From positions 80,642-144,641 of the forward strand of contig CAYZJA010000001.1 of the NCBI GenBank assembly GCA_964479005.1: DNA of 64,000 nt. Reading direction: 5' to 3'. Below are positions 12,441 to 58,036 of this stretch, piece after piece (position 1 is the stretch's first letter; each line of letters starts with the position of its first letter). The notes below the pieces were generated by a model. That model searched no databases. It saw only the letters and a list, made by a program, of their open reading frames with translations, and was not told the origin of the DNA. The translations under genes were made by a program, and so were the position numbers. Origin of the DNA: an uncultured Candidatus Saccharibacteria bacterium (lineage in GTDB: Bacteria; Patescibacteriota; Minisyncoccia; UBA6257).

Positions 12441-12493
12441 ATTAACAAGGACTAGCTTTACTAAATTTATGCCTTTGGCATTTGTCCTTATTT

Positions 12494-12521
12494 GGTGTGG
12501 GGGTTGACAAATTATTTTTCT
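12494..12521 (+). promoter_or_regulatory. sigma70-like promoter TTGACA-N16-TATACT (sRNA copy 1)
   Basis: ggggttgacaaattatttttctttgctatact; paralogous to the promoters at 54247 and 57847. Confidence 0.6.
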
Positions 12522-12527
12522 TTGCTA

Positions 12528-12596
12528 TACTAAAGATGCCGTTGTTTTGAGATATGTAGCTTGCTATATATCAATGGGCAGCGGCATTTTTTTTTG
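12528..12596 (+). ncRNA. small RNA / structured leader, copy 1 of a two-member family
   Basis: AAGATGCCGTTGTTTTGAGATATGTAGCTTGCTATATATCAATGGGCAGCGGCAT then U9. The 5' ATGCCG pairs with the 3' CGGCAT. Homologous to 54281-54342 with a compensatory C-G to U-A change in that stem. Confidence 0.5.
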
Positions 12597-12656
12597 CGCT
12601 TTTTGATGGTATAATAAAATATAGAAATAATTAAAAAAGATAAAGTATTAATTAAT

Positions 12657-13319
12657 ATGATTAGTTTAAATCAAGTTAAAAAGAATCCGCAGATATTAGA
12701 ATTTATCAAACAGTCAGATGAAGCTTTAGCGGCAGTAGGTTATACAGAGCATAGTTTGTCTCATGCCAAGATTGTTGCTACTCGAGCGAGAACAATTGCT
12801 AAAGAACTTGGTTTTTCAAAACAAAAGCAAGAAATAGCAGCTATTGCCGGTTTTTGTCATGATATGGGGAATTTTTTAAGCAGAAGCCATCATCATTATT
12901 TTGGAGCTTTATTATTCCATCAGACTTTTAATCAGGATTTTACTCCAGAGGAATTAGCAATAATCATGAATGCAATTTCCAATCATGATAAAGACGAAAT
13001 GAATTTTTCCAACATTATTACTGCGATACTTGTTTTAGCTGATAAAACAGATGTGCGCCGTTCAAGGGTGGTTAATAAAAAACCTAAGAAAATAAAAAAG
13101 GATATACATGATAGGGTTAATTTTGCCACAAAAATATCAAGAGTAAGAATTAACAAAAAGAAAAAATTAATTACTTTAATTCTTAAAATTGATACTGGCT
13201 TTGTACCAATAATTGAATACTTTGAAATTTTTACAGATAGAATGGTTTATTGTCGAAAAGCGGCAAAGTTTTTAGGCTATAAATTTGGTTTAATAATTAA
13301 TAACTTTAAATTACTTTAA
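12657..13319 (+). CDS. HD-domain phosphohydrolase
   Basis: H...CHDMGN (HD motif)...NHDKDE. Confidence 0.65.
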   Translation: MISLNQVKKNPQILEFIKQSDEALAAVGYTEHSLSHAKIVATRARTIAKELGFSKQKQEIAAIAGFCHDMGNFLSRSHHHYFGALLFHQTFNQDFTPEELAIIMNAISNHDKDEMNFSNIITAILVLADKTDVRRSRVVNKKPKKIKKDIHDRVNFATKISRVRINKKKKLITLILKIDTGFVPIIEYFEIFTDRMVYCRKAAKFLGYKFGLIINNFKLL

Positions 13320-27203: not shown

Positions 27204-27404
27204 ATGGTAAAAGCAAAAGAATTACGATTAAAACCCGAAGAGGAATTAAATCAATTACTGTCTGAATCCCAAAAGAAATTACGGGAATTGAGGTTTAATT
27301 TGGCTAGCGGAAAAGTTAAAAACGTACGCACCATTCGTGTTTTGAAAAAGAACATTGCGAGAATTTTAACTATTTTAAATGAAGAAAATGAAAATCAACT
27401 CTAA
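27204..27404 (+). CDS. rpmC: 50S ribosomal protein L29
   Basis: MVKAKELRLKPEEELNQLL...LRFNLASGKVKNVRTIRVLKKNIARI. Confidence 0.9.
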   Translation: MVKAKELRLKPEEELNQLLSESQKKLRELRFNLASGKVKNVRTIRVLKKNIARILTILNEENENQL

Positions 27405-27528
27405 TTATGAGCCAAAGGCGAATAACAAGGTTCTTATTATGAGCAAAGCAAATAACAAGGTTCTTATTATGAGCCAAAGGCGAATAACAAGGTTCTTATT
27501 ATGAGCAAAGCAAATAACAAGGTTCTTA
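27405..27528. repeat. 2 x 62-bp tandem repeat filling the rpmC-rpsQ spacer; member of the AAGAACCTTG repeat family in inverted orientation
   Basis: ttatgagccaaaggcgaataacaaggttctta + ttatgagcaaagcaaataacaaggttctta, duplicated. Each half carries a micro-ORF (atgagccaaaggcgaataacaaggttcttattatga = [11 protein letters not shown]). Confidence 0.9.
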
Positions 27529-33551: not shown

Positions 33552-34309
33552 TATATTTTAAAACTTCTCAAGATATCAGTATTCTACGTGAAGGCGGAAA
33601 AAAATTGGCATTAGTTTTAAAAAAAGTAACGCAGGCTGTTCAGCCAGGAATATCTACTGCTGATTTGGATAAATTGGCTTTTAATCTTATTTGTGAATAC
33701 GGGGGTAAACCCTCGTTTTTAAATTATCAACCAAGTTTTGCTAATAAGCCATTTCCATCAAGTTTATGTACTTCAATAAATGAAACTGTGGTTCATGGCC
33801 TTCCTTCAGAGAAAAAGATCTTAAAGCAAGGTGATGTGATTTCATTAGATTTAGGAATGGAGTATAAAGGATTATTTACTGATATGGCAGCAACAGTAGG
33901 CGTAGGAGAAATAAAGCCAATATATGAAAAATTGATAAAAATAACGAATGAGTCTTTATTACAAGCAATAAAAACGTCAAAGGTAGATAATACTTTGGGT
34001 GATATAGGTTATGCTATTCAAAAATGTGTAGAAAAAGAGGGATTTGTTGTTGTAAAAGGTTTAGTGGGGCATGGAGTTGGTTATTCTCCGCATGAAGATC
34101 CTGTTGTTTTTAATTATGGAACCCCGCATCAGGGGTTAAAATTGGAAGAGGGTATGGTTATAGCAATAGAGCCAATGGTGACTTTTGATGATGGAACTGT
34201 AAAAGAAGAAAAAGATGGCAGTTTTGTGACTCTCAATGGAAGAGTATCGGGTCATTTTGAACATACAGTGGCTATTACAAAAAAGGGACCAATAGTAATT
34301 ACGGAGTAA
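33548..34309 (+). CDS. map: type I methionine aminopeptidase
   Basis: Pita-bread fold metal ligands (D...D...HGVGYSPHEDP...E...E), typical MetAP. Confidence 0.93.
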   Translation: MIYFKTSQDISILREGGKKLALVLKKVTQAVQPGISTADLDKLAFNLICEYGGKPSFLNYQPSFANKPFPSSLCTSINETVVHGLPSEKKILKQGDVISLDLGMEYKGLFTDMAATVGVGEIKPIYEKLIKITNESLLQAIKTSKVDNTLGDIGYAIQKCVEKEGFVVVKGLVGHGVGYSPHEDPVVFNYGTPHQGLKLEEGMVIAIEPMVTFDDGTVKEEKDGSFVTLNGRVSGHFEHTVAITKKGPIVITE

Positions 34310-34330
34310 CAAAGGCGAGGAGATATATAA

Positions 34331-34525
34331 GCAAGTATTTCTCTTTCACTCCTACATTCCAGCAGAGACAAACAATACTCACTCACTCGGGAACACCTTC
34401 CGAAATTCCGCTTCGCCACGTTAAACGTGGCTTCGCTCCAGTTTCGGCTTTCCTTTTCGTTCGTTTCATTTGTTTGTATCTCTGCTTCCATTAATGTCGT
34501 TCAGGAGCAAATACTTGCTTTAATA
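34331..34525. repeat. ~195-bp imperfect palindromic element with 11-bp terminal inverted repeats (MITE-like, or a long RNA hairpin)
   Basis: agcaagtattt (34331-34341) vs aaatacttgct (34515-34525). Arms share agcagaga-caaacaa. Centre cgccacgttaaacgtggc. GC content is higher than the surrounding sequence. Confidence 0.5.
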
Positions 34526-34681
34526 TTTTTTCAACAGCCTCTTCTTGCATTAAACTTTTATACATTCACACTTTGTTAATTGTTATTTGTTTTTTGTTTA
34601 TATCCTGGAGGTTGACCTTCGAGCAATAATGTGGTAGCATATAAATGTCCAAAAATGGACATTGTTTTTTTGACAAAAGAA

Positions 34682-40518: not shown

Positions 40519-40526
40519 TCTATTGA

Positions 40527-40943
40527 CGATTGAACCTATAAGCCGAATTCTGTATCCTGTTAAACAGGACGATAGTCATTTATCTAGCCCTGAAATTACT
40601 CTCAGGGTCAAGCGGCCACTTTCTGACAAATGTCAGAACACGAGCCTTGCACCCAGTAAGGATTTAGCCGTTTCATTCTTGAAATTGCTTTCAAGACTCA
40701 CCCTAATTAAAAAATAATTAGGGTGTTTTGAACTTTTCAGTTCAAAACGTCTCTGTTCGCACCTCTATTCCAGTTGTAAATCCGTCATTAGCGTTACCGC
40801 TAAGAGGCAAAAACTGGAGCGATAGCTGTTAGCTATTACCTTTTACCAACTTTGTTTTAGGCAAAATTGGTGGTGTTCGGACTTTCCTCCCCGCCTAAGT
40901 TTTGCGAACAAAATTTTGGCGGGGTAACTACCCAGTTCAATCG
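40527..40943 (-). ncRNA. rnpB: RNase P RNA (bacterial type A-like)
   Basis: Minus strand reads CGAUUGAAC (P1)...UUACCCCGCC-loop-GGCGGGG (P3)...AGGAAAGUCCGAACACC (P4 5' strand)...AGGGUGA...ACAGAAUUCGGCUUAUAGG (P4 3' strand)...GUUCAAUCG (P1). Confidence 0.85.
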
Positions 40944-46483: not shown

Positions 46484-46488
46484 ACGTT

Positions 46489-46695
46489 GCGGGCATCGTA
46501 TAGTGGCAGTACGTAACCTTCCCAAGCCCCCACACCAAACGAGTATCATTGCGAGATTAGTATAGTGGTAGTACATCACCTTCCCAAGGTGAAGGTGCCG
46601 GTCCGATTCCGGTATCTCGCTCCGTTTAAAATTTAAAATACTCGTTGTGGTGTGGGGGCAAGGTTAAAGTGTGGGTTCGATTCCCATTGTCCGCT
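46489..46695 (+). tRNA. tRNA-Gly(CCC) gene interrupted in the anticodon loop by a 136-nt insert (5' half 46489-46525, 3' half 46662-46695)
   Basis: GCGGGCA-TC-GTAT-AGTGGCA-GTAC-G-TAACC-TTCCCAA // GGTTA-AAGT-GTGGG-TTCGATT-CCCAT-TGTCCGC-T. All stems pair. The junction is ambiguous across a 3-nt AAG direct repeat. Confidence 0.6.
46551..46621 (+). tRNA. second tRNA-Gly(CCC)-like gene nested inside the insert; atypical T-loop TCCGATT
   Basis: GCGAGAT-TA-GTAT-AGTGGTA-GTAC-A-TCACC-TTCCCAA-GGTGA-AGGT-GCCGG-TCCGATT-CCGGT-ATCTCGC-T. Flanked by 20-bp inverted repeats at 46527-46546 and 46638-46658. Confidence 0.6.
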
Positions 46696-46778
46696 CAAAT
46701 TATTTTTTCGTTACTATCCAAAAAGATTGACGAAGTTTCAAGTGCAATATGGTTTTGTATAATCTTTTTACATTGCTC

Positions 46779-53969: not shown

Positions 53970-54170
53970 ATGAATAAAACCTGGTTAATCATAGCACTTG
54001 CAGTATTAGTAGTGGTTATTATTATGATCGTTCGTAGTGCAGGAGCGCCAACTGATGTTCCTGAAACAACAACTACTACTGAGGCAGTTGTAGATGAAGT
54101 TTTGCCTTTAGAAGGTGAAACAGTCGAAGATGAAGTTTCAGAAGATGAAGCAGTGGTTCCTGTTGAATAG
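53970..54170 (+). CDS. small membrane-anchored protein with acidic T/E/V-rich tail
   Basis: N-terminal TM helix; AAAAAAGGTCGAT motif 43 nt upstream. Confidence 0.45.
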   Translation: MNKTWLIIALAVLVVVIIMIVRSAGAPTDVPETTTTTEAVVDEVLPLEGETVEDEVSEDEAVVPVE

Positions 54171-54192
54171 ACGATTTTTAAAAAGACCTGTT

Positions 54193-54227
54193 ATATTTGA
54201 TATAGCAGGTCTTTTTCTTTATACATA
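54193..54227 (+). terminator. intrinsic terminator
   Basis: aagacctgttatatttgatatagcaggtctttttc. Confidence 0.65.
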
Positions 54228-54246
54228 AAGTTATCCACAATGGGAC

Positions 54247-54274
54247 TTGACAAGATTTAAATGTTTGCTATACT
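54247..54274 (+). promoter_or_regulatory. sigma70-like promoter TTGACA-N16-TATACT (sRNA copy 2)
   Basis: gggacttgacaagatttaaatgtttgctatact. Confidence 0.6.
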
Positions 54275-54280
54275 ACGGAT

Positions 54281-54342
54281 GCTGTCGTTTGGAAGTATTT
54301 GTTAGCTTGCTAATGGATATGGAAGAGTGGCAGCATTTTTTT
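54281..54342 (+). ncRNA. small RNA / structured leader, copy 2
   Basis: ACGGATGCTGTCGTTTGGAAGTATTTGTTAGCTTGCTAATGGATATGGAAGAGTGGCAGCAT then U7. Conserved core GTAGCTTGCTA; terminal stem ATGCTG / CAGCAT. Confidence 0.5.
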
Positions 54343-54366
54343 ATACTTACATAATAACAAAAGATA

Positions 54367-54427
54367 CGAAGAATTGTCCTTCATATTTTTGATTGACTTT
54401 ATTAATAAGACGTGATATAGTAAAAAT
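54367..54427 (+). promoter_or_regulatory. TTGACT-N17-TATAGT promoter followed immediately by a hairpin and U-tract
   Basis: ttgactttattaataagacgtgatatagt then aaaaatgctcttaattgagcattttttt. Confidence 0.3.
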
Positions 54428-54571
54428 GCTCTTAATTGAGCATTTTTTTGTACTTTGACATTTAAAATATATAGCCGTAACAGGGAAAATTCTTTGTTAT
54501 TGGAGATAAAAGATAGATTATTAAATGATTTGATTAGTAAAAAATAAATTTAAATAAAGGAGGAAAGAAAG

Positions 54572-57712: not shown

Positions 57713-57846
57713 AACAAAGGGGAAGATTAATCTTCCCCTTTTATTTTTTATAAATATAAAATATTTTTATCATTTAATTTATAAAGCCAATGAAAGAGTT
57801 GGCAAATCATTATTAATATCATATTTTACTTAATTAAGAGTGGACT

Positions 57847-57875
57847 TGACAAGAAAAAAAAAGTTTGCTATTGTG
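57847..57875 (+). promoter_or_regulatory. sigma70-like promoter TTGACA-N17-TATTGT, paralogous to the sRNA promoters
   Basis: gtggacttgacaagaaaaaaaaagtttgctattgt vs gggacttgacaagatttaaatgtttgctatact. Confidence 0.5.
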
Positions 57876-57877
57876 TT

Positions 57878-58036
57878 TTCACGGTGGGGCTTTTATTTTA
57901 GCCCCGCAGTGGGGCTTATGAATAATATTCAAAAAAGGGGATTTCATAATTTAAACAAAATTTCTTTTCGATTTCTTGCGTTTAGTAAAATTGAAAAAGA
58001 AGTTTTTTGAGGTTGGCGTTTTTGCGCCAACTTTTT
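57878..58036 (+). ncRNA. candidate ~155-nt short transcript (sRNA, or mRNA for a 30-aa peptide) bounded by a promoter and a terminator
   Basis: Hairpin ggggcttttattttagcccc; possible micro-ORF MNNIQKRGFHNLNKISFRFLAFSKIEKEVF; terminator gttggcgtttttgcgccaac followed by ttttt at 58012-58036. Confidence 0.3.

What the first reader, a model, noticed from the sequence alone, without database searches (positions are those of the whole stretch)
54241..54345. Second copy of the sRNA family, upstream of the exopolysaccharide-like module
Copy 2 is separated from copy 1 by 42 kb.
- Promoter gggacTTGACAagatttaaatgtttgcTATACT.
- Transcript ACGGAUGCUGUCGUUUGGAAGUAUUUGUUAGCUUGCUAAUGGAUAUGGAAGAGUGGCAGCAU + U7.
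- It sits between a strong terminator (54193-54227) and another promoter-hairpin unit (54367-54427), so it is insulated as an independent unit.

It is listed separately so the locus is inspected on its own. Its position before the secreted protein / GT2 synthase / hydrolase genes suggests possible regulatory coupling to surface polysaccharide production.
Basis: seen in the sequence. Interest (0 to 1): 0.55.

Follow-up and report, generated by a model that had tools for sequence, protein, structure and literature searches.

The report
Multicopy promoter-hairpin-terminator RNA cassette
This is a real member of an undescribed repeated cassette in a group of ultra-small (CPR) bacteria, in which a near-perfect promoter fires straight into its own terminator hairpin to make a tiny stable RNA; this copy sits beside a binding site for the replication initiator DnaA, and nothing links it to the sugar-polymer genes next door.

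Summary
At 54247-54342 a near-consensus promoter (TTGACA-16-TGcTATACT) is followed 3-4 nt later by a 58-nt hairpin that folds on the + strand only, with a G-CUUG-C apex and U7. A covariance model finds exactly two members in the window (12535-12592, 54278-54341).

The family is large. About 146 hits in ~130 public contigs (Candidatus Pacebacteria/Paceibacterota-like) were recovered. Stem length ranges from 36 to 58 nt, the apex is near-invariant, and covariation is strong (16 of 28 pairs change on both sides). No Rfam family matches.

New points:
- About 87% of hairpins not selected through their promoter still carry the same promoter at the same spacing.
- In most loci the cassette starts about 17 nt after the upstream gene's stop codon, so the hairpin is also that gene's terminator.
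- 28% of units, including this copy (54231-54239), have a DnaA-box consensus exactly 6-8 nt upstream of the -35. That arrangement occurs only in this family.

There is no conserved single-stranded seed and no above-background complementarity to the proposed targets. The downstream genes have separate promoters and terminators. An antisense or exopolysaccharide-regulator reading is therefore not supported.

Best reading: an autonomous, very stable hairpin RNA that also punctuates transcription. Its function is untested.

The parts
54180..54220 (+). Intrinsic terminator of the upstream 66-aa membrane-protein gene. It marks the left boundary and is not part of the cassette.
   Evidence: 17-bp hairpin, -19.4 kcal/mol, z = -7.6, followed by U5. 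Conserved in L118, L095 and L111.
54231..54239 (+). Perfect DnaA-box consensus TTATCCACA, ending 7 nt before the -35.
   Evidence: One of only two perfect boxes in the window; the other lies inside a CDS. 31 of 110 promoter-bearing family units carry the box (1 mismatch or fewer), always in the same orientation with a 6-8 nt gap; 26 have exactly 7 nt. All 34 unique box+6-8nt+TTGAC sites in 1.02 Mb are family units. Near-invariant at the orthologous loci. DnaA binding is inferred.
54247..54252 (+). -35 hexamer TTGACA.
   Evidence: Invariant in family alignment A2. The family logo conserves the hexamers, while the spacer is less conserved.
54266..54274 (+). Extended -10, TGcTATACT.
   Evidence: TTTGCTATA is invariant in A2.
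54278..54335 (+). 58-nt hairpin RNA body (GAUGCUGUCG...GGCAGCA).
   Evidence: Fold. Covariance-model hit of 53.6 bits, E = 3.4e-10. Family covariation. The orthologous locus has a 42-nt version that lacks a 16-nt apical segment.
54305..54310 (+). Apex G-CUUG-C, a tetraloop with its closing pair.
   Evidence: G, C, U, U and G are invariant, and the closing C is present in 52 of 53 distinct family sequences, while 16 stem pairs show double changes.
54336..54342 (+). U7 tract. Together with the hairpin it forms an intrinsic terminator.
   Evidence: The family T-run is 5-9 nt, mostly 7-8.
54360..54390 (+). Weak second hairpin with a U5 tail downstream of the unit.
   Evidence: -6.4 kcal/mol, z = -2.2. 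Conserved in L130 and L118. 22 of 110 family units have a second terminator 32-103 nt downstream.
54393..54449 (+). Promoter-like site (TTGACT-17-TATAGT) fused to a 10-bp hairpin AAAAAUGCUC...GAGCAUUUUU with a U7 tract. It may be a degenerate relative of the family.
   Evidence: z = -4.5. The covariance model gives only 16.9 bits, E = 0.15. Present but decaying in L130 and L118.
12504..12595 (+). Copy 1 of the family. -35 at 12504-12509, TGcTATACT at 12523-12531, 52-nt hairpin at 12535-12586, U9 at 12587-12595. No DnaA box.
   Evidence: -29.4 kcal/mol, z = -5.85; 54.8 bits. Orthologous loci L014, L125, L087, L104, L121 and L066 carry a 42-nt hairpin before the same HD-domain gene.

Best explanation
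Window 54231-54342 is one copy of a clade-specific, multicopy promoter-hairpin-terminator cassette of Paceibacteria-type CPR bacteria.

A near-consensus sigma-70-type promoter starts transcription 3-5 nt before a long, perfectly nested hairpin. The hairpin is capped by an invariant G-CUUG-C tetraloop and followed by U7. Hairpin plus U-tract form an intrinsic terminator that begins at the very 5' end of the transcript. RNA polymerase therefore makes an RNA of about 60-65 nt that is nothing but a blunt hairpin, and then stops.

Both ends of this RNA are buried in one helix, so it should be unusually stable. It has no conserved single-stranded stretch. If it acts in trans, it must act through its shape, by binding or titrating a protein that recognises the apex or the terminator-like hairpin, and not by base pairing.

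The same hairpin also stops polymerases arriving from upstream. In most family members it is the only terminator of the preceding gene. The cassette therefore also punctuates and insulates transcription units.

In this copy, and in about 28% of the family, a DnaA box phased 7 nt upstream of the -35 most likely lets DnaA tune initiation. That would tie output to replication or nucleotide status.

Shown: the sequence elements, the strand-specific covarying structure, the copy number, the genomic contexts, and the phasing and exclusivity of the DnaA box.

Inferred: promoter activity, termination, RNA stability, DnaA binding, and any trans function.
For: Structure:
- 53 distinct sequences give 90.3% paired cells, against 37-69% when the partner is slid.
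- 16 of 28 pairs change on both sides, and 0 of 500 shuffles reach the covariation score.
- Frequent G-U pairs make the fold specific to the strand read from the promoter.

The promoter belongs to the element:
- 110 of 117 unique units have TTGAC-16/18-TAnnnT at fixed spacing.
- 26 of the 30 unique hairpins found by the RNA model alone still have it.
- The hexamers and the TG are conserved while the spacer varies.
- The same promoter type drives RNase P RNA in L075.

Transcripts are not meant to continue:
- 27 of 94 downstream genes are convergent.
- 51 of 110 units are followed by a separate consensus-like promoter, against 14 in shuffles. 22 of 110 are followed by a second terminator.
- Nothing precedes the hairpin in the transcript, so no antiterminator structure can form.

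Terminator duty:
- The upstream gene is co-oriented in 78 of 94 loci, and its stop codon lies a median of 17 nt before the -35.

Conservation:
- At the orthologous locus the DnaA box and promoter are nearly invariant, while the hairpin changes from 42 to 58 nt.
- L137, a Pacebacteria genome with 74% identical RplL, has 3 units in 20 kb.

DnaA box.

No Rfam match.
Against: - No expression data were available. Promoter use, RNA 3' ends and DnaA binding are all predictions.
- No protein partner is known.
- Paralogues within one genome differ in stem sequence and length (36-58 nt), so any recognition must be limited to the apex and the general shape.
- Copy density varies strongly between lineages, from 2 per 64 kb here to 5-6 per 11-12 kb in L091 and L129. 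That fits a cis-acting or proliferating cassette better than a dosage-tuned trans RNA.
- The context counts include near-identical contigs from related strains.
- Both window copies have separate upstream terminators, so the shared-terminator role is not needed at these two loci.
Confidence: 0.5

Rival explanations
1. Purely cis-acting punctuation or insulator cassette. What is selected is the act of strong initiation followed by immediate termination at gene boundaries. Possible roles are terminating the upstream gene, blocking read-through, occupying or recycling RNA polymerase next to the following promoter, and parking DnaA. On this reading the hairpin RNA is a by-product.
For: - The cassette sits a median of 17 nt after a co-oriented stop codon.
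- A second promoter starts a median of 36 nt after the hairpin in 51 of 110 units.
- Copy number differs about ten-fold between lineages, and paralogues differ in stem sequence.
- A promoterless relative serves as a plain terminator (L102 13682 and its orthologues).
- Published precedents exist for terminator-promoter coupling and for polymerase re-initiation after termination (bioRxiv 10.64898/2026.08.19.745784; PMC6978380).
Against: - It does not explain why a near-consensus promoter should point into the terminator, the opposite order from the published coupled elements.
- It does not explain why the tetraloop is invariant while the stems drift.
- Both window copies sit behind independent terminators.
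Confidence: 0.28
2. Proliferating selfish repeat, comparable to REP/BIME elements or promoter-bearing Correia-type miniature elements, which spreads into intergenic DNA near terminators.
For: - Multicopy and intergenic, with lineage-specific expansions in variable regions rich in small membrane or secreted protein genes.
- Identical 58-nt RNAs occur at three unrelated loci (L003, L004, L005).
- Loci gain, lose or swap versions: the window has a degenerate promoter with a different hairpin at 57838-57925, where L130 has a full unit.
- The unit is sometimes inserted between a stop codon and a pre-existing terminator.
Against: - No terminal inverted repeats, target-site duplications or associated transposase were seen.
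- The functional promoter positions are conserved while the spacer drifts.
- Compensatory stem changes and retention at orthologous loci across lineages indicate purifying selection on function.
- No family members were found in viral contigs.
Confidence: 0.1
3. One reading: the unit is a promoter plus regulated terminator (attenuator) that gates transcription into the downstream secreted-protein/GT2/GH113 genes.
For: - The downstream gene is co-oriented in 67 of 94 loci.
- DnaA-box-type units recur upstream of GT2 operons in several lineages.
- A conserved apex and basal stem could be the binding site of a common antitermination factor.
Against: - The hairpin begins at +1 to +3, so no alternative RNA structure is possible.
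- In the window two more hairpin + U-tract elements follow.
- L137 has its own promoter between the unit and the 237-aa gene.
- In L095 and L111 the same orthologous unit is followed by unrelated DNA.
- 29% of downstream genes are convergent, and 20% of units are followed by a second terminator.
Confidence: 0.07
4. Classical trans-acting base-pairing sRNA that uses the GUAGCUUGCUA core as its seed.
For: It is a discrete unit with its own promoter and terminator, and the apex sequence is conserved.
Against: - The core is the closed tip of a hairpin of -22 to -27 kcal/mol, and only 4 nt are unpaired.
- The 36-nt family members are perfect 15-16-bp hairpins with no single-stranded region.
- The three proposed targets rank in the middle or bottom of 57 genes.
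- The stems vary freely between paralogues.
Confidence: 0.04

Closest known systems
REP/BIME repetitive extragenic palindromes of Enterobacteria, including REP325-derived naRNA4 (from my own knowledge)
   Same: Multicopy intergenic imperfect palindromes placed just after genes. They fold in the transcript, protect or terminate mRNA 3' ends, and can give small hairpin RNAs.
   Different: REPs carry no promoter of their own, have a conserved GTAG end recognised by RAYT transposases, and are not linked to DnaA boxes. Here a consensus promoter is an integral part of about 90% of units.
Correia elements (CREE/NEMIS) of Neisseria (from my own knowledge)
   Same: Short multicopy intergenic elements that bring promoter hexamers and hairpin or terminator activity, and that alter expression of neighbouring genes.
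   Different: Correia elements are bounded by 26-bp terminal inverted repeats and TA duplications, and the whole element forms the hairpin. No such ends are seen here. Here the promoter lies outside the hairpin and points into it.
GraL, the short transcripts from the E. coli greA leader (PMC2836576)
   Same: Strong promoter(s) followed within about 40-60 nt by an intrinsic terminator, yielding abundant RNAs of 40-60 nt.
   Different: GraL is a single-copy leader of one gene with about one third read-through. This family is multicopy, often unconnected to the downstream gene, and the RNA is entirely a hairpin.
Promoter-coupled terminators (Fletcher et al., bioRxiv 10.64898/2026.08.19.745784)
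   Same: Promoter and terminator elements packed together in short tandem intergenic regions. Copy 1's U-tract is followed directly by a TGgTATAAT promoter for the HD-domain gene, which fits that layout.
   Different: In that work the terminator comes first and overlaps the next gene's promoter. In this cassette the promoter comes first and is terminated by its own hairpin.
3'-end sRNAs with their own promoter that share the mRNA terminator, such as DapZ and MicL (from my own knowledge)
   Same: A promoter near the end of a gene, with the sRNA and the upstream mRNA using one terminator.
   Different: Those sRNAs carry single-stranded seeds, are Hfq-dependent and are single-copy. This RNA has no seed.
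CcnA of Caulobacter (PMC8959179)
   Same: A small RNA whose transcription is tied to cell-cycle or replication regulators.
   Different: CcnA is a single-copy base-pairing RNA at the origin under CtrA control. Here the link is a phased DnaA box at many dispersed copies.

Membership tests
Any Rfam 15 family | Score at or above the family's gathering threshold | tested here: not met
   No hit over 54275-54345 or 12532-12598 at gathering threshold. At E up to 10 on 54100-54560, no listed match spans the hairpin, and all are far below their gathering scores. Related loci gave only tRNA and rRNA hits.
Intrinsic (Rho-independent) terminator | Stable stem-loop immediately followed by a U-tract on the transcribed strand | tested here: met
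   -23.5 kcal/mol hairpin followed by U7. The family has U5-9. Termination activity itself was not tested.
Sigma-70-type promoter | -35 and -10 hexamers with 16-18 nt spacing, optionally with a TG extension | tested here: met
   11 of 12 matches plus TG. One of 9 such sites in 128 kb, and one of the only two with TG. The functional positions are conserved across about 110 units.
DnaA-regulated promoter | Consensus DnaA box TTATCCACA at a fixed position relative to the promoter | tested here: met
   Perfect box 7 nt upstream of the -35. Present in 31 of 110 units, with the same orientation and a 6-8 nt gap. All 34 such sites in 1.02 Mb belong to the family.
DnaA-regulated promoter | DnaA binds the site and changes transcription | not testable with these tools
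   Needs EMSA or footprinting and in vitro transcription.
Trans-acting base-pairing sRNA | Conserved accessible single-stranded seed and complementary targets | tested here: not met
   Only the 4-nt loop is unpaired, and the minimal members are perfect hairpins. The proposed targets do not stand out.
Transcription attenuator / riboswitch-like leader | Alternative antiterminator structure and a co-oriented regulated gene downstream | tested here: not met
   The hairpin starts at +1 to +3, so there is no upstream RNA to compete. 27 of 94 downstream genes are convergent, and separate promoters or second terminators follow.
REP / RAYT-associated palindromes | Conserved GTAG-type end and an associated RAYT (TnpA-REP) gene | tested here: inconclusive
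   The hairpin base is (G/A)AUGC, not GTAG. No transposase-like ORF was seen in the loci whose ORFs were listed. Whole genomes were not available.
MITE / Correia-type element | Terminal inverted repeats and target-site duplication | tested here: not met
   The left edge is 3 nt, or the DnaA box, upstream of the -35. The right edge is the U-tract. The two ends are not inverted copies of each other and no duplication is seen.
SRP (4.5S) or 6S RNA | Domain IV loops with a GNRA tetraloop (SRP), or a hairpin of about 180 nt with a central bubble (6S) | tested here: not met
   No Rfam hit. The RNA is 36-58 nt with a CUUG loop, and no internal loop is strictly conserved.
CRISPR repeat / tracrRNA-like duplex | Repeat-spacer array or an adjacent cas gene | tested here: not met
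   The units are single, no repeat array was found, and the neighbours are unrelated genes. The resemblance of AUGCUGU..UUUUGA to a Cas9 repeat comes from memory only.
Leaderless mini-ORF / leader peptide | Conserved start codon and a conserved short reading frame | tested here: not met
   Members found independently of the 5' sequence start with AGUGC, ACUGC or CAUGC. Frames run 4 or 8 codons, or have no stop before the terminator in the 36-nt forms.

The most novel reading that the evidence does not exclude
In a clade of ultra-small, regulator-poor CPR bacteria, DnaA directly controls dozens of dispersed promoter-hairpin cassettes. These would form a previously unknown replication-coupled circuit. 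One version is that an abundant, nuclease-proof hairpin RNA titrates an RNA-binding or termination factor. Another is that the cassettes themselves act as a chromosome-wide sink for DnaA and RNA polymerase. Either would link transcription-unit boundaries and surface-gene expression to the replication state.
Probability: 0.2. Interest if true: 0.8.

Novelty: new variant of a known kind. Interest (0 to 1): 0.58.

Why it matters
CPR/Patescibacteria make up a large part of bacterial diversity. They have tiny genomes and few transcription factors, and almost nothing is known about their non-coding RNAs or how they organise transcription.

- This is a well-supported, clade-wide RNA family with about 146 instances, strong covariation and no Rfam entry.
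- Its architecture is unusual. The best promoters in the region are spent on a transcript that consists only of its own terminator, and a phased DnaA box is found only at these promoters.
- If expression is confirmed, it would give a ready covariance model for annotation.
- It would also give a natural strong promoter and terminator pair for the new genetic tools in these organisms.
- It would provide a testable link between replication control and transcription in minimal cells.

If the RNA proves to be a by-product, the cassette would still show how compact genomes punctuate their genes.

Tried and rejected
1. Rfam at gathering and permissive thresholds gave nothing over the element.
2. Mini-ORF starting at the conserved AUG (MPLF*, MLSF*, MLSFGSIC*). 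Rejected because the AUG is not conserved in members found without requiring it, and the frame length is inconsistent.
3. Antisense targeting of 54572, 55272 or 12657. No signal above the other 54 genes.
4. SRP, 6S or Y-RNA-type identity. The size, the loops and the multicopy nature do not fit.
5. CRISPR or tracrRNA-like resemblance of AUGCUGU..UUUUGA. There are no arrays or cas genes, so I treat it as chance.
6. DNA-uptake-sequence idea. The density is too low, and it would not explain the promoter.
7. Phage or mobile-element carriage. The promoter+GATGC pattern found 0 viral contigs. Two looser RNA patterns found 140 viral loci, none with family features.
8. General architecture test. A strict scan for 'strong promoter fused to a single terminator hairpin' finds only family members: 2 in the window, 3 in L137, 0 in L138-L140 and 0 in five shuffles. 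The mini-units at 34612 and 54393 fall below that bar.
9. Homogenisation test. The RNA is only slightly more conserved than the promoter spacer between paralogues (0.84 against 0.77), so this does not decide between a trans and a cis role.
10. Literature searches found no description of this element.

Ascertainment caveat: the genome scan required the loop and GATGC, and the metagenome scan required the promoter and GATGC. Conclusions about those features rest on the 36 secondary hits found with the RNA model alone.

Full report
**What is in the window**

Between the terminator of a 66-aa membrane-protein gene (54180-54220) and the 237-aa/GT2/GH113 genes, the + strand reads as follows:
- A perfect DnaA box TTATCCACA at 54231-54239.
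- TTGACA at 54247-54252.
- A 16-nt spacer.
- TGcTATACT at 54266-54274.
- Three nucleotides later, GAUGCUGUCGUUUGGAAGUAUUUGUUAGCUUGCUAAUGGAUAUGGAAGAGUGGCAGCA at 54278-54335.
- U7 at 54336-54342.

The RNA folds into one nested hairpin of -23.5 kcal/mol (z = -4.55). Its complement does not fold comparably (-5.9 kcal/mol, z = -1.3). Copy 1 has the same layout at 12504-12595 with a 52-nt hairpin (-29.4 kcal/mol, z = -5.85).

Only nine sites on both strands of the window match the promoter consensus at 11 of 12 positions. These two are the only ones that also carry the TG extension.

The start is probably G54278 or A54279 rather than directly after the -10. The next promoter-hairpin unit is at 54393-54449. 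A weak hairpin with a U5 tail lies between them at 54360-54390.

**It is a large family**

No Rfam family matches. A genome scan with a hairpin pattern found seven true relatives in Patescibacteria MAGs, all with the same promoter. About 110 of its 139 matches were hairpins of 36, 38, 40, 42, 44, 52, 54 or 58 nt, essentially all with a GCUUGC apex (one has GCUUGU).

For 53 distinct sequences:
- 90.3% of cells are paired, against 37-69% for slid controls.
- 16 of 28 pairs change on both sides.
- No shuffle in 500 reaches the covariation score.
- Of the six apex positions G-CUUG-C, five are invariant and the closing C is present in 52 of 53 sequences.

A covariance model (R1) finds exactly two members in the window and 146 in about 130 loci.

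**Lineage**

RplL relatives are named Candidatus Pacebacteria, Paceibacterota or Minisyncoccia. The window lies on a 551,616-bp contig. A Pacebacteria genome with 74% identical RplL has three units in 20 kb. Three genomes at 58-65% identity have none. The family is therefore specific to a sub-clade.

**The promoter is part of the element**

The searches were biased, so I relied on the 36 hits that the RNA model found without any promoter requirement. Of 30 unique ones, 26 carry TTGACA-16/17-TATAcT at the same spacing. Across all unique units the figure is 110 of 117. The hexamers and the TG are conserved while the spacer varies.

The first nucleotides vary (AAUGC, AGUGC, ACUGC, CAUGC), which removes the idea of a conserved leaderless AUG and mini-ORF.

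**Context**

- The upstream gene is co-oriented in 78 of 94 cases, and its stop codon lies a median of 17 nt before the -35. In most loci the hairpin must therefore also terminate that gene.
- Downstream genes are co-oriented in 67 of 94 cases and convergent in 27.
- 51 of 110 unique units are followed by another consensus-like promoter, at a median of 36 nt and against 14 in shuffles.
- 22 of 110 are followed by a second terminator.
- Neighbouring genes are diverse: pilB, Fic, MscS-like, small membrane proteins, 23S rRNA, tRNAs and GT2 synthases.
- Some contigs carry 5-6 units in 11-12 kb.

These counts include near-identical contigs from related strains.

**The DnaA box**

In 31 of 110 promoter-bearing units, TTATCCACA (1 mismatch or fewer) lies in the same orientation with a gap of 6-8 nt before the -35, and 26 have exactly 7 nt. 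In 1.02 Mb of fetched sequence, all 34 unique sites with this arrangement are family units and none is anything else. The window has only two perfect boxes, and the other is inside a gene. At the orthologous locus in L130, L118, L095 and L111 the box and promoter are almost invariant, while the hairpin is 42 nt instead of 58 nt.

**How it most likely works**

The transcript begins at the base of its own terminator, so no alternative structure can compete and the product is a blunt hairpin with a U tail. Minimal members are perfect 15-16-bp hairpins, so there is no seed for base pairing.

I therefore read the unit as an autonomous gene for a very stable hairpin RNA that also serves as a terminator and insulator. 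Initiation at this copy is probably tuned by DnaA. Any trans action would be through a protein that recognises the apex or the terminator-like shape.

The main rival is that the RNA is a by-product and the cassette works only in cis. Lineage-specific expansions and sequence differences between paralogues favour that view. The invariant loop and the otherwise pointless promoter argue against it. A selfish-repeat origin is possible, because loci gain, lose or swap versions and identical RNAs occur at unrelated loci. However, no terminal repeats, duplications, transposase or viral copies were seen.

The unit precedes the 237-aa/GT2/GH113 module in the window, L130, L118 and L137. DnaA-box units precede other GT2 operons in L129/L102 and L127. 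But L137 has a separate promoter for the module. The window has two more hairpin + U-tract elements in between. L095 and L111 have unrelated DNA after the same orthologous unit. The adjacency is best explained by synteny, and a regulatory link remains untested.

**Comparison with known systems**

The cassette resembles REP/BIME and Correia elements in being multicopy intergenic hairpins. It resembles GraL in pairing a strong promoter with an early terminator. It resembles 3'-end sRNAs that share a terminator with the upstream mRNA. It is the mirror image of the promoter-coupled terminators described in a 2026 preprint. It meets none of their defining membership features other than being a promoter and an intrinsic terminator. 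I found no description of it in the literature searches.

**Verdict**

This is a real, conserved and previously undescribed RNA/terminator cassette family. The antisense and exopolysaccharide-regulator reading is unsupported.

Noticed in passing
window 46487-46700: A tRNA-Gly(CCC)-like gene appears to be split after its anticodon loop by an insert of about 135 nt. The insert is bounded by about 20-bp inverted repeats (CCCCCACACCAAACGAGTAT ... ATACTCGTTGTGGTGTGGGGG) and itself contains the annotated tRNA-Gly(CCC) at 46551-46623. The whole region folds as a tRNA with a long helix extending the anticodon stem (-86 kcal/mol, z = -6.0).
   Followed up: partly
window 12447-12503; also L020, L060, L096: The motif TTGGTGTGGGGG abuts the -35 of copy 1. 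It is the same motif as the repeat ends of the tRNA insert. L096 has the full inverted pair enclosing a small hairpin just upstream of its unit. This may be a second repeat or processing-stem family.
   Followed up: partly
window 34303-34545: A non-coding stretch of about 240 nt between the gene ending at 34309 and the next small gene folds into one long extended hairpin (-74.4 kcal/mol, z = -7.7). It has no Rfam hit.
   Followed up: partly
window 34612-34672: A promoter-like site (TTGACC ... TAGCAT) is followed directly by an 8-bp hairpin AAUGUCCA..UGGACAUU and a U-tract (z = -3.1). The layout is the same as the family but it does not match the model.
   Followed up: partly
window 57838-57925: A degenerate family-type promoter (CTTGACAAG-N9-GTTTGCTATTGT) is followed by a different GC-rich hairpin. 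L130 carries a complete 58-nt family unit at the corresponding place, after the terminator that resembles the window's GH113-gene terminator.
   Followed up: partly
window 12587-12656: Copy 1's U9 tract is followed by GCGCTTTTTGATGGTATAAT, an extended -10 promoter for the HD-domain gene at 12657. This terminator-then-promoter layout is conserved in L014, L125, L087, L104, L121 and L066.
   Followed up: partly
L019, L021, L022, L026, L032, L037, L038, L042 and others (mostly human-gut metagenome contigs): The same promoter plus GATGC drives an unrelated, well-folded 83-nt RNA (GAUGCUUGCUCGGAGGGCAACUCAUUCAG...CCUUGUCCGGC, about -40 kcal/mol). L019 gave no Rfam hit. In L075 the same promoter drives RNase P RNA, and in L011, L080, L072, L093 and L086 it drives other short structured leaders.
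   Followed up: no
L137 15955-16010: A reversed DnaA box (TGTGGATAA) sits 4 nt upstream of the -35 of the promoter that follows a family unit.
   Followed up: no
window 27400-27523: Two tandem copies of a 62-nt unit at 98% identity.
   Followed up: no
window 40523-40943 (- strand): RNase P RNA class A scores only 110 bits against a threshold of 100, consistent with a divergent CPR lineage.
   Followed up: no
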